Shown in pieces: positions 20,273 to 22,343 of a stretch of 24,000 nt of DNA (positions within the stretch are counted from its first letter, which is position 1; each line of letters starts with the position of its first letter). The notes beneath the pieces are model-generated. The model was not told the DNA's origin, made no database searches, and saw only the letters and a list, made by a program, of their open reading frames with translations. The position numbers and the translations under genes are program-made. The DNA is from an uncultured Phycisphaerales bacterium (GTDB lineage: Bacteria > Planctomycetota > Phycisphaerae > Tepidisphaerales > Tepidisphaeraceae): the NCBI GenBank assembly GCA_963728435.1, contig CAVSJX010000004.1, positions 712,180-736,179 on the forward strand, read 5' to 3'.

Positions 20273-20410
20273 AACCAGGCGGACTCCCTCCGGTAACGCG
20301 AACAAAGGACTGCGCCAGAAGGACTTATCGGACGAGTTGGGGGGTAATCTTAATCGGGATGGGGAAAATCCGCCGGGAGGCGCGGGGATCGCCAATGCGT
20401 CGTACGGCTT

Positions 20411-20888
20411 CTAGAGCGTGTTATGAACTTTCCACGCCCCGCGAGGGGACGCAATCGACTCAGATGCCAGGAGCGACCGCGAGAGCGGGGTCTTGATGAC
20501 CCTTTGAGCGGTTGTGACGAGGCAGTTGGGTCGATTCCGTGCCGCCTTTGGTGGGCCGGAAAGGGCATAACACGCTCTGGCCGGTGGTCATTCTGGTGGG
20601 GGTAACCTTTGGCCGCTTTGCCGGTGCGACAAATTGTCATGTTCGGACCGCCATGTCGTCAGAAGGGGCAAAAACGGGGTCGGCGGCCGGGTGGGGATGG
20701 TACGGTACTACAACGGTGAGAGTACGGTGTGAGTCGGGAGCCGAATCGGACGCAACACAGGAGCACAACATCCTGTGTTTCCGTGTTTTCATGGACGGGC
20801 TCGGGGCCGGATTGCCTGGATGAGAAGGGTCGTGGCCGTGCCCTTTCCGGCCCATCGCGGGGTGCGGAAAGTGCATAAGGCGCTCTAG
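20411..20888. repeat. Nested inverted-repeat / hairpin-rich non-coding element (four copies of a ~25-35-nt motif)
   Basis: Copy A 20411-20444 (CTAGAGCGTGTTATGAACTTTCCACGCCCCGCGA) is the inverted partner of copy D 20855-20888 (TCGCGGGGTGCGGAAAGTGCATAAGGCGCTCTAG): 29 Watson-Crick plus 2 G-U of 34. Copy B 20553-20580 (GGGCCGGAAAGGGCATAACACGCTCTGG) pairs perfectly with A over 13 bp (20413-20425 / 20566-20578). B also pairs with copy C 20839-20853 (TGCCCTTTCCGGCCC) over 15 bp. Internal hairpins are CCCC-GCGA-GGGG (20437-20448), CCGC-GAGA-GCGG (20477-20488), GGGTC-TTGAT-GACCC (20488-20502), AATCGAC/GTCGATT (20453-20459 / 20530-20536) and AACACAGGA-8nt-TCCTGTGTT (20754-20779). No convincing ORF is present. 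Confidence 0.6.
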
Positions 20889-20982
20889 TGATTCTTGCTC
20901 GATACGGTTAGCAGCCCGCATGCGGGGCGCGTTCCAGTGGCCTGCCTTTGAGGTGGAAGCCGCATGATGTGGCAAGCTGTTG

Positions 20983-21737
20983 TCAATCATGGGGATGGCG
21001 ATGGAGCAGGATGTGGGGGCGCTCCAGGCCGTTGGCGAGCATGAGGGATTCATCGGAGAGAAGCCCGGCGGTGGGGCCCTGGGCGATGAGGCGGCCGTGA
21101 TTGAGCAGCAGGACACGCGAGCAGAGCTCGACGACGAGCTCGAGGTCGTGGGTGGCGATGATGATCGTTGCGGTGAGCTGGCAGAGGAGCTGTTTGAGCT
21201 CGCGCTTGCCGGCGGGGTCGAGGCCGCTGGTGGGTTCGTCGAGGACGAGAATTTCGGGATTGCAGGCGAGGACGCCGGCGAGGCAGACGCGGCGTTTTTC
21301 GCCGAGGCTCAAGCGGTGGGGCAAGCGGTCTTCGAAGCCGGCGAGGCCCATCTGGGCGAGGCTGTGAGAGACGCGGGATTGGACGTTGGGTTCGGGGAGG
21401 CCCATTTGCGCGGGCCGAAGGCAACGTCCTCGAAGACCGTGGGGCAGAAGAGCTGGTCGTTGGGGTCCTGAAAGAGAAGGCCGACCTGGCGGCGGATCTC
21501 GGGGAGGGTTTGGCGGGTGATGGGTTGGCCGAGGACTGTGACGCCGGTGCCGGATTCGAAGTGGTCGTCGGGAAGCAAGCCGTTGAAGTGTTGGAGGAGA
21601 GTGCTCTTGCCGGCGCCGTTGGGGCCGACGATGCCGAGGCATTCGCCGGGTTCGACGCGGAACGTGATTGAGTTCAGGGCGTCGGCGGATTGGGCGTAGC
21701 GGTAGGAGAGGTCGTGGACCTCGATTGCGGGGGTCAT
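20983..21737 (-). pseudogene. cbiO: ECF-transporter ATPase CbiO/EcfA-type, one frameshift as assembled
   Basis: The N-terminal part lies in the frame of ORF 21309..22343: MTPAIEVHDLSYRY..GECLGIVGPNGAGKSTLL (Walker A) ..VGLLFQDPNDQLFCPTVFEDVAFGP. The rest lies in the frame of ORF 20983..21642: AQMGLPEPNVQSRV..PHRLSLGEKRRVCLAGVLACNPEILVLDEPTSGLDP (signature plus Walker B) ..ATHDLELV. The break is at ~21411-21416, in a short C/G run. ATG 21737 overlaps the cbiQ stop (ATGA). Confidence 0.85.
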
Positions 21738-22343
21738 CGCCACCCCCGGGCGCACATGGCGGCGTAAACGCGGTCGGCGCGGTCGGCGGAGCGGATGAAA
21801 AGCTGGCCGATAACGGTGGAGAGGGATTGCCATTGGAAGCGCCTGGTGTTGCGGAAGGTGCGGCAGGCGCGGGCGCGGTTCATGCGGTGGGCTTCGTGGC
21901 CGAGGACAAAGAGGTAGCGGTGCATCAGGAGCATCGTCGTGATCAGGAGCGAGGGGACGCGGGCGGTGCAAGACCTGGATGAGTTCCGAGACGGTTGTGG
22001 TGGCGGAGAGCAGGACGAGCGTCGCGATGCAGATCGTGCATTTGGCGATGAGGATAAGCATGACGTGAAGGCCGTGGGGTTGAAAAAGGGAGAGGATGGC
22101 GACGCCGAGGACGAAAGGTTCGAGGATGAGGACACGGCGGAGAAGATGCGGGATGGAGACGCGGCTGATGGCGAGGGCGATCAGGAGCGCGACGGCGGGG
22201 GCGATGAGATAGACGGTGTGTGACAAGGGCACCGCGACGGTTGCGAGAATCAGCACGAGTGCGGCGGCGGCTTTGATGGGTGCGGGCCAGCGGTGCGATT
22301 GCGCGGCGGGGGGAGGATCAAGGGCGATCAGGAGGTGGTGCAT
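21734..22343 (-). pseudogene. cbiQ: ECF-transporter transmembrane component CbiQ/EcfT-type, one frameshift as assembled
   Basis: The N-terminal hydrophobic part lies in the frame of ORF 21309..22343: ..IKAAAALVLILATVAVPL..APAVALLIALAIS..LEPFVLGVAILSLF..ATLVLLSATTTVSELIQVL. The C-terminal part lies in the frame of ORF 21734..22135: RVPSLLITTMLLMHRYLFVLGHEAHRMNRARACR..IGQLFIRSADRADRVYAAMCARGW, the conserved CbiQ C-terminal block. The break is at the GGG run 21960-21962. Confidence 0.8.

What the first reader, a model, noticed from the sequence alone, without database searches (positions are those of the whole stretch)
20396..20982. About 0.6 kb non-coding region between cbiO and ftsQ built from nested inverted copies of one motif, with GNRA-capped hairpins: MITE-like element or structured RNA
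There are four copies of GGAAAG-NN-CATAA-NN-CGCTCT(A/G)G, two extended by TCGCGGGG. Copy A (20411-20444) is inverted and copies B (20553-20580) and D (20855-20888) are direct; copy C (20839-20853), a partial inverted copy, directly abuts D. A can pair with D (34 positions: 29 WC plus 2 G-U) or with B (13 perfect bp plus 5). B can pair with C (15 perfect bp), and C with D locally. These are mutually exclusive helices. The A-B interval (~170 nt) folds into a multi-hairpin junction with two GNRA tetraloops (GCGA, GAGA) and a 7-bp long-range helix (20453-20459 / 20530-20536). The GNRA loops and G-U pairs exist only on the plus strand, antisense to the flanking genes. A 9-bp hairpin (20754-20779) lies in the B-C interval. 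No ORF is credible. The motif occurs nowhere else in this window. Explanations are a ~170-bp MITE plus a solo hairpin copy, a ~480-bp non-autonomous element bounded by A/D, or a plus-strand structured ncRNA or regulatory switch upstream of ftsQ.
Basis: seen in the sequence. Interest (0 to 1): 0.65.

Follow-up and report, generated by a model that had tools for sequence, protein, structure and literature searches.

The report
Composite MITE carrying a repeated core
The 0.6-kb spacer is one copy of a small non-coding transposable element (a MITE) that is scattered through this one genome in hundreds of related copies, so it is an ordinary kind of selfish DNA, though its conserved middle part is unexplained.

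Summary
The inverted motif copies are real: exactly three full copies in the window, none expected by chance. But the region is not unique. Window 20414-20885 is a 472-bp composite non-autonomous transposon flanked by TA. Four more copies (94-97% identical) lie in unrelated contexts in the same 6.2-Mb genome.

Its ends (GAGCGTGTTATGnACTTTCC) match the ends of an ~862-bp IS5-family insertion sequence elsewhere in the genome (DUF4096 plus DDE_Tnp_1).

The composite has three parts:
- a ~165-nt palindromic MITE unit (A..B, ~19 copies);
- a ~225-nt core;
- a terminal hairpin (C/D).

The core has ~200 copies. About 90 of them sit in a second MITE family with different ends, whose IS5-family parent has ~28 copies.

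The core carries an invariant triple ACGGT at 11-bp phase. There are 269 such arrays in this genome, none in 140 genomes of the family, and one chance hit in 400 genomes of the phylum.

No Rfam match and no global conserved fold were found. Two local plus-strand hairpins in the core do show compensatory changes.

Verdict: the MITE reading is supported; the structured-RNA or ftsQ-switch reading is not. The core's function is unknown.

The parts
20412..20413 (.). TA next to the left end (inside CTAG 20411-20414); presumed target duplication
   Evidence: Sequence. TA or YTAR abuts most copies of this terminal repeat genome-wide.
20414..20885 (+). 472-bp composite non-autonomous element (A..D)
   Evidence: Four further copies at 94-97% identity over window ~20411-20888 (C4:91786, C1:1545899, C2:26423, C4:588598), each with different flanks.
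20414..20433 (+).
   Evidence: It matches the left end GAGCGTGTTATGGACTTCCGCC of the IS5-family element at L086:546-1407.
20414..20577 (.). A-B unit: ~165-nt long imperfect palindrome, a MITE in its own right
   Evidence: ~19 loci in the genome. It matches itself on both strands. It folds as a single long hairpin with z -10.7 and -7.3. An IS110-family element has inserted into such units.
20558..20577 (+).
20578..20605 (+). Linker (TGGCCGGTGGTCATTCTGGTGGGGGTAA), homologous to the sequence just upstream of cores that have no flanking terminal-repeat modules ('bare' cores)
   Evidence: Compared with ..gcggcggtgattctcaaagggca.. upstream of bare cores.
20606..20830 (+). Repeat core
   Evidence: 233 nhmmer hits in the genome, 152 near full length. 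144 of 152 are intergenic. The core is carried inside two MITE families with different terminal repeats, and also occurs bare.
20702..20728 (+). Three ACGGT at exact 11-nt phase, invariant in the core
   Evidence: 269 such arrays in the genome against 0 for the control motif. No match to the array's two-repeat 18-nt part (ACGGTGNGNGTACGGTGT) in 140 genomes of the family. One chance hit to the full three-repeat pattern in 400 genomes of the phylum.
20734..20752 (+). Short hairpin (6 pairs, one usually mismatched) with compensatory changes
   Evidence: Alignment columns 164-169 with 177-182. Pair 165/181 reads CG 21, UA 19, UG 16. Pair 164/182 reads GC 33, CG 3. Pair 169/177 is G.U in 53 of 60.
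20754..20789 (+). 9-bp hairpin plus T-rich tail (terminator-like)
   Evidence: Eight of the 9 pairs were tested on the alignment (columns 186-193 with 202-209). Pair 189/206 reads CG 7, GC 2, GU 5, UG 1. Pair 190/205 is G.U in 47 of 60 and A-U in 9.
20839..20853 (-).
   Evidence: The same C/D structure forms the 3' end of subfamily 2 of the A-B units.
20866..20885 (+).
   Evidence: It matches the right end ..AAAGTGCATAAACACGCTC of the IS5-family element in L086.
20886..20887 (.). TA next to the right end (inside CTAG 20885-20888)
   Evidence: Sequence.

Best explanation
Window 20414-20885 is a composite miniature inverted-repeat transposable element (MITE). It has no gene of its own.

Its two ends are ~20-nt inverted repeats. 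An IS5-family DDE transposase made elsewhere in the genome binds such ends, cuts the element out or copies it, and inserts it at a TA (often CTAG), duplicating the TA. That this transposase is the one acting on this element is inferred.

This copy landed between the cbiO-like and ftsQ-like genes. Internally it is nested:
- a ~165-nt palindromic MITE unit of the same family (A..B);
- a ~225-nt passenger core;
- a terminal double hairpin (C/D) that supplies the right end.

The core is a separate, older repeat of this lineage that has been picked up by at least two different MITE vehicles. It is not needed to explain mobility.

Shown: copy number, end matches, the transposase families, the TA flanks, and an empty-versus-filled site for the sister family. 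Inferred: that the single IS5-family copy found, or a lost relative, is the acting transposase, and that the element has no dedicated role at ftsQ.
For: (1) Multi-copy.
- 61 BLAST matches in a first search and 299 with short words.
- The 23-nt terminal motif has 108 copies at up to 5 mismatches.

(2) Moves as a unit. There are 5 copies of the A..D composite at 94-97% identity, with unrelated flanks.

(3) Autonomous partner.
- L086:546-1407 (G000:C3) is ~862 bp and bounded by TA|GAGCGTGTTATGGACTTCC... and ...GTGCATAAACACGCTC|TA.
- It encodes DUF4096 (84.7 bits) and DDE_Tnp_1 (44.2 bits).
- This is the size and two-frame layout of small IS5-family members such as the 860-bp IS427-group element listed in PMC3196728.

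(4) Sister family.
- 47 complete M-type elements of 471-573 bp carry the same core between ends RCACTACAGCGCT, flanked by YTA|..|TAR.
- Their parent is a 1005-bp IS5-family element (DUF4096 70 bits, DDE_Tnp_1 43.6 bits) present in ~28 copies.
- An F2 repeat reads cctgctatttggaggg when empty and cctgctattt|element|ttggaggg when filled, which is a 2-bp duplication.

(5) Genomic placement. 144 of 152 cores are intergenic, with no orientation bias.

(6) Lineage-specific. No matches were found in 140 family genomes, 400 phylum genomes, metagenome contigs or viral contigs.

(7) No Rfam family matches.
Against: - Only one full-length IS with these exact ends was found, and its DDE domain is split over two frames beyond the expected orfA/orfB shift. 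It may be decayed, or the assembly may carry an indel there.
- TA is not present at both ends of every composite copy: left in 4 of 5, right in 2 of 5.
- No empty site was found for the H-type composite itself.
- Beyond ~20 nt the MITE interior does not resemble the IS.
- A DDE cut-and-paste element needs no internal hairpins, yet two hairpins in the core keep pairing through compensatory changes with plus-strand G.U pairs. The core is also more conserved than its flanks in old copies. Something beyond mobility may therefore be selected.
Confidence: 0.85

Rival explanations
1. The core is a functional non-coding module that rides in MITEs. Either it is a ~150-170-nt plus-strand RNA ending at the 20754-20779 hairpin, or it is a phased array of ACGGT sites bound by a protein. 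This is compatible with the MITE explanation for the ends.
For: - Two hairpins keep pairing through changes on both sides: 82.7% of cells paired against 23-52% when slid; covariation 0.150 against 0.127 +/- 0.007, with 0 of 500 shuffles reaching it.
- G.U pairs dominate at two of the pairs, so only the plus strand pairs.
- The second hairpin has a T-rich tail.
- ACGGT x3 at 11-nt phase is invariant while the bases between the repeats vary.
- The array also lies at the centre of two other repeat families, F2 and F3, and expands in tandem up to 15 units.
- The core has been joined to terminal modules at three or more different junctions.
Against: - No sigma-70-like promoter.
- The whole-core fold is no better than shuffles (z -0.3 and -0.15).
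- The consensus fold of 60 copies is only -8.7 kcal/mol with 14 pairs.
- No orientation bias to genes for the core or F3.
- Not found in the other 540 genomes searched, as expected of recent selfish DNA rather than a host function.
- The covariation counts are few events shared by subfamilies, and I drew the structure from these same sequences.
Confidence: 0.2
2. The region is a locus-specific plus-strand structured RNA or switch controlling ftsQ.
For: It lies 140 nt upstream of the ftsQ-like ORF. The A-B unit folds very stably on the plus strand (-105.8 kcal/mol).
Against: - The same sequence lies next to unrelated genes in ~150 places and in both orientations.
- The plus strand here is antisense to both neighbouring genes.
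- The minus strand also folds far better than chance.
- No Rfam hit.
- Same-genus relatives keep the ftsQ-like gene, but no copy of the element's core was found in their genomes.
Confidence: 0.03
3. The hairpin modules are REP/REPIN- or BIME-like units moved by a RAYT (Y1 HUH transposase), not by a DDE transposase.
For: - The genome has 25 Y1_Tnp matches.
- Solo 62-64-bp double hairpins of the motif exist.
- The repeats are mosaic, like BIMEs.
- An IS110-family element targets the A-B unit as IS110 members target REPs (the REP habit is from my own knowledge).
Against: - The RAYT-like genes examined are flanked by their own unrelated inverted repeats (GGGGACGTAGCTCTTCA.. and GGGTCGCACATCGATT..), not by this motif.
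- The motif does bound a DDE-type IS5-family element with TA flanks.
- There is no GTAG or CGTC head as in the REP superfamilies described in PMC3733652 (abstract only).
Confidence: 0.05

Closest known systems
MITEs derived from IS5-family insertion sequences (small two-frame IS427/IS1031-like members)
   Same: Short and non-coding. ~20-nt terminal inverted repeats identical to those of a resident IS. TA or short target duplication. Tens to hundreds of intergenic copies. Subfamilies.
   Different: The interior is not a deletion derivative of the parent IS. It holds a passenger core that is shared with a second MITE family whose ends differ.
Mobile insertion cassettes (MICs) of Bacillus cereus, mobilised in trans by IS231 (from my own knowledge, not checked in a paper here)
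   Same: IS ends flank foreign passenger DNA and move it in trans.
   Different: MICs carry genes. Here the passenger is a ~225-nt non-coding repeat, and copy numbers are far higher.
BIMEs and REPINs of enterobacteria and pseudomonads; BOX elements of Streptococcus pneumoniae
   Same: Mosaic interspersed repeats built from interchangeable hairpin modules. Intergenic. Targets for IS110-family insertion.
   Different: Those are tied to RAYT (REP/REPIN) or have no known mover (BOX). Here the modules end in DDE-type IS5 terminal repeats with TA flanks.
CORE-SINEs of vertebrates (analogy only)
   Same: One conserved central domain is combined with different heads and tails in several mobile families.
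   Different: Those are retroposons with pol III promoters. Nothing here suggests reverse transcription.

Membership tests
MITE (non-autonomous DDE transposon) | Short (under ~0.6 kb) with no coding capacity | tested here: met
   The element is 472 bp. No frame has a conserved start, and the candidate ATG varies (ATG, AGG, AAG, ATA) among copies.
MITE (non-autonomous DDE transposon) | Terminal inverted repeats | tested here: met
   20414-20433 and 20866-20885 match the same 20-nt pattern on opposite strands; the extended arms 20411-20454 and 20845-20888 are 44 nt, 82% complementary.
MITE (non-autonomous DDE transposon) | Many dispersed copies with unrelated flanks | tested here: met
   5 composites, ~19 A-B units, 108 terminal motifs and 152 full cores.
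MITE (non-autonomous DDE transposon) | Ends match those of an autonomous IS that encodes a transposase | tested here: met
   L086:546-1407 has the same ends and encodes DUF4096 plus DDE_Tnp_1. It is a single copy, and its DDE domain is split by an extra frameshift.
MITE (non-autonomous DDE transposon) | Target-site duplication | tested here: inconclusive
   TA lies on both sides of the window copy and one other composite; one side is degenerate in three. The result is clear for the sister M-type family (YTA|..|TAR in 36 of 47).
MITE (non-autonomous DDE transposon) | Empty versus filled site | tested here: inconclusive
   Shown for the M-type family inside F2 repeats, with a 2-bp duplication. 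Not found for the H-type composite. Relatives lack the cbiO-ftsQ junction.
REP/REPIN with RAYT | The repeat flanks the RAYT gene that moves it | tested here: not met
   The two RAYT-like gene groups examined have other inverted repeats at their borders.
Any Rfam RNA family | Covariance-model match | tested here: not met
   The best hit scored 15.4 bits against a gathering score of 40, E 3.1.
Small RNA gene with intrinsic terminator | Promoter, discrete transcript and terminator hairpin with U-tract | not testable with these tools
   A hairpin plus T-rich tail is present and no sigma-70-like promoter was found.

The most novel reading that the evidence does not exclude
The ~150-nt conserved core, with its invariant ACGGT x3 array at helical phase and two compensated plus-strand hairpins, is a functional module: either a small RNA or a protein-binding array. 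Under this reading it has been captured independently by three MITE vehicles with different ends (the H-type and X-type IS5 ends, and the F2 'GGCCTGCCA' ends) and spread to ~270 intergenic sites in one lineage. That would make it a bacterial counterpart of a CORE-SINE, or a mobile regulatory cassette.
Probability: 0.2. Interest if true: 0.65.

Novelty: new member of a known kind. Interest (0 to 1): 0.3.

Why it matters
For annotation, the spacer should be labelled as a repeat, not as a candidate riboswitch or ftsQ regulator. The same label applies to roughly 1% of this genome.

For biology, the case shows a genome in which two related IS5-family elements have each produced MITEs that carry the same passenger. 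It also shows an IS110-family element using those MITEs as landing sites.

If the passenger core turns out to be active, as an RNA or as a binding array, it would be a clean system for asking how MITEs distribute regulatory sequence. As it stands, this is a well-documented but ordinary class of selfish DNA.

Tried and rejected
- Coding. Two plus-strand frames are open in 58-70% of copies, but the strand is G-rich and stop-poor, and the start codon is not conserved. No gene family ends upstream of bare cores.
- TnpB/omega-RNA idea. No Cas12f1-like_TNB match in the genome.
- IS110 bridge-RNA idea. The similarity near IS110 genes turned out to be IS110 copies inserted into A-B units.
- RAYT link. 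Cores lie within 6 kb of the seven RAYT-like genes of two groups, but at variable distances with other genes between, and the RAYTs have their own repeats.
- IS630-family partner for the TA/CTAG target. There are 42 DDE_3 hits, but their ends (ATACGGATTC.., CTAGTGTACG..) differ from the window's ends.
- IS200 ends. No similarity.
- Searches elsewhere. The one genome-contig scan gave only a chance coding hit in a Patescibacteria MAG. Two metagenome scans and one viral scan were empty.
- Organism name. It could not be obtained, because records of the window's own genome are withheld.
- A permissive all-pairs covariation screen was uninformative because the strand is G/T-rich. One script failed on a wrong regex.

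Full report
**Observation**

- The 20-nt pattern GGAAAGNNCATAANNCGCTC occurs at 20414-20433 (minus), 20558-20577 (plus) and 20866-20885 (plus), and nowhere else in the 24 kb. Shuffles expect 0.
- A/D pair over 44 nt at 82%. B/C pair 16 of 16. C abuts D.
- The hairpin 20754-20779 with a T-rich tail is the only terminator-like site.
- The detailed fold proposed for the A-B interval was not reproduced. The 170 nt fold as one long imperfect hairpin on either strand: -105.8 kcal/mol (z -10.7) on plus, and -83.7 (z -7.3) on minus.

**The region is repeated DNA**

A search of the window's own 6.2-Mb, 10-contig assembly gave 61 matches and 299 with short words. The matches fall into nested units.
- The whole A..D composite (window ~20411-20888) has four more copies at 94-97% identity, each with different flanks.
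- The 3' ~307 bp (core plus C/D) has ~14 more copies.
- The A-B unit alone has ~19 loci and matches itself on both strands.
- The 23-nt terminal motif has 108 copies at up to 5 mismatches.
- A ~225-nt core (window 20606-20830) gives 233 nhmmer hits, 152 of them near full length.
- Conservation stops within ~250 nt upstream and ~600 nt downstream of the core, so no gene travels with it.

**Who moves it**

The ends GAGCGTGTTATGnACTTTCC recur at G000:C3 (locus L086, 546-1407). There they bound an ~862-bp element written TA|GAGCGTGTTATGGACTTCC ... GTGCATAAACACGCTC|TA.
- On its minus strand lie a DUF4096 orfA (84.7 bits) and a DDE_Tnp_1 domain (44.2 bits for the N-part, with the C-part in a third frame).
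- This is a small two-frame IS5-family insertion sequence. An IS427-group element of 860 bp with two frames is listed in PMC3196728.
- The extra frameshift may be decay or an assembly indel. The cbiO-like gene beside the finding is also split across frames.

**A sister family carries the same core**

- 92 core copies belong to an 'M' class. Its consensus is [~100-nt module with ends TTAACACTACAGCGCT..AGCGCTGAAGTGCTAA] + core + ~170 nt + [second copy of the module].
- 47 complete M elements of 471-573 bp have unique flanks and read YTA|RCACTACAGCGCT...AGCGCTGTAGTGY|TAR.
- The parent is a 1005-bp IS5-family element (L085 242-1246; DUF4096 70 bits, DDE_Tnp_1 43.6 bits) present in ~28 copies.
- Copies of another repeat (F2) read cctgctatttggaggg when empty and cctgctattt|M element|ttggaggg when filled. 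This is a direct empty-versus-filled comparison giving a 2-bp duplication.

**What the window's architecture means**

- A is the left end.
- B is the right end of an inner A-B MITE unit.
- C/D is the double-hairpin right end, which subfamily 2 of the A-B units also carries.
- GGGTCGATTCCGTGCC before B is repeated as GGGTCGTGGCCGTGCC before C (D2). This suggests the core sits between a duplicated 3' part of an H-type MITE.

**The core**

- With a crude gene caller, 144 of 152 cores are intergenic. Their orientation relative to neighbours is unbiased: 45, 44, 33 and 30 for the four arrangements.
- About 21 'bare' cores lack either kind of end, are more diverged, and share ~110 nt of weakly conserved upstream sequence. 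No gene family ends upstream of them.
- The core joins terminal modules at three or more different positions: X module at TA|AAAGGGC, H module at TA|AGGGC, and H module ~27 nt further upstream in the window type. Capture therefore happened more than once.

**RNA tests**

- Rfam gave nothing.
- The core's fold is no better than shuffles on either strand.
- On 60 deliberately diverse copies (A1), RNAalifold finds 14 pairs at -8.74 kcal/mol with a covariation term of -0.38.
- Two local hairpins that I specified do better: 82.7% of cells paired against 23-52% when the partner is slid; covariation 0.150 against 0.127 +/- 0.007 in shuffles (0 of 500); five pairs with changes on both sides.
- G.U is the dominant state at two of the pairs, so only the plus strand pairs.
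- The tool's own caveats apply. The sequences are related, and the structure came from them. I read this as real but modest support for two conserved plus-strand stem-loops, not for a large structured RNA.

**The ACGGT array**

- The genome has 269 arrays of three or more phased ACGGT against 0 for a control pentamer: 179 in cores, 56 in a family F3, 26 in F2, and 8 others. 254 of the 269 are intergenic. Tandem expansion reaches 15 units at C2:165543-165701.
- F3 (52 copies) also shows no orientation bias.
- F2 appears to have its own inverted ends (GGCCTGCYA.. / ..TGGCAGGCC; my reading).

**Distribution**

- The core was not found by BLAST in 40 relatives (including two same-genus genomes) or in 140 genomes of the family.
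- The 18-nt array pattern has 301 hits here and none in those 140 genomes.
- A 28-nt array pattern with one mismatch allowed has 387 hits here and one in 400 genomes of the phylum.
- Metagenome and viral collections hold no exact match to two core invariants. Records of the window's own genome are excluded from those scans.
- Many relatives are fragmented MAGs in which repeats assemble poorly, but several have 1-10 contigs.

**Conclusion**

The finding is a composite IS5-type MITE: a new member of a known kind. The ftsQ-switch reading is rejected. The core's conservation, its repeated capture, its phased array and its two compensated hairpins leave about a one-in-five chance that it is more than a passenger.

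Noticed in passing
window 20983-22343 (minus strand): The cbiO-like ABC ATPase is split across two overlapping frames. The N-terminal part of ABC_tran is in 21309-22343 and the C-terminal part in 20983-21642. This is either a frameshift or an assembly indel. Similar frame breaks elsewhere suggest homopolymer errors in this assembly.
   Followed up: partly
Homologues at 72% identity exist in both same-genus genomes. Those genomes have no close cbiO homologue (best match 34% identity, on other contigs), so the cbiO-ftsQ junction is not conserved.
   Followed up: partly
G000:C1:687959-689722, C2:386734-388497, C7:30040-31802: A 1764-bp IS110-family element sits inside A-B MITE units at ..CGCTCAAAGGG^TCATCAAGACC.. 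Only one half of the unit is left at each copy. This suggests the MITE is a preferred IS110 target, as REPs are elsewhere.
   Followed up: partly
whole genome G000: The genome has a very heavy mobile-element load: 25 Y1_Tnp, 30 DEDD_Tnp_IS110, 42 DDE_3 (IS630-type) and 35 DUF4096 (IS5-type) matches, and no TnpB.
   Followed up: no
G000:C2:165543-165701; C1:407545-407650; C1:107357-107407: The 11-mer ACGGTGTG(G/A)GT expands in tandem, up to 15 units, inside F2-type repeats.
   Followed up: no
52 loci, e.g. G000:C1:1394981, C1:1404802, C4:881045: Repeat family F3 has an ~80-nt highly conserved block: TTTGCACGGTG..ACGGTGAGAGTACGGTGTGGGTCGGAGCTTTTGCACAAGCGGATGTCAATATGTCGTATGGG. By eye, its part after the array resembles the core's part before the array. 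Its function is unknown and it shows no orientation bias.
   Followed up: partly
G000:C3:376880-377572 and four near-identical copies; C6:115330-116022: There are two groups of RAYT-like or IS200-like Y1 transposase genes with their own flanking inverted repeats. One of these repeats carries a GTAG-containing hairpin (GGGGACGTAGCTCTTCA / TGAAGAGCTACGTCCCC), as in GTAG-tagged REPs.
   Followed up: no
G000:C1:1422545-1423730 and five copies: A 1186-bp IS630-family element (ends ATACGGATC.., TA flanks) has inserted into a larger ~1.2-kb repeat that itself contains an M-type MITE. This gives three levels of nesting.
   Followed up: no
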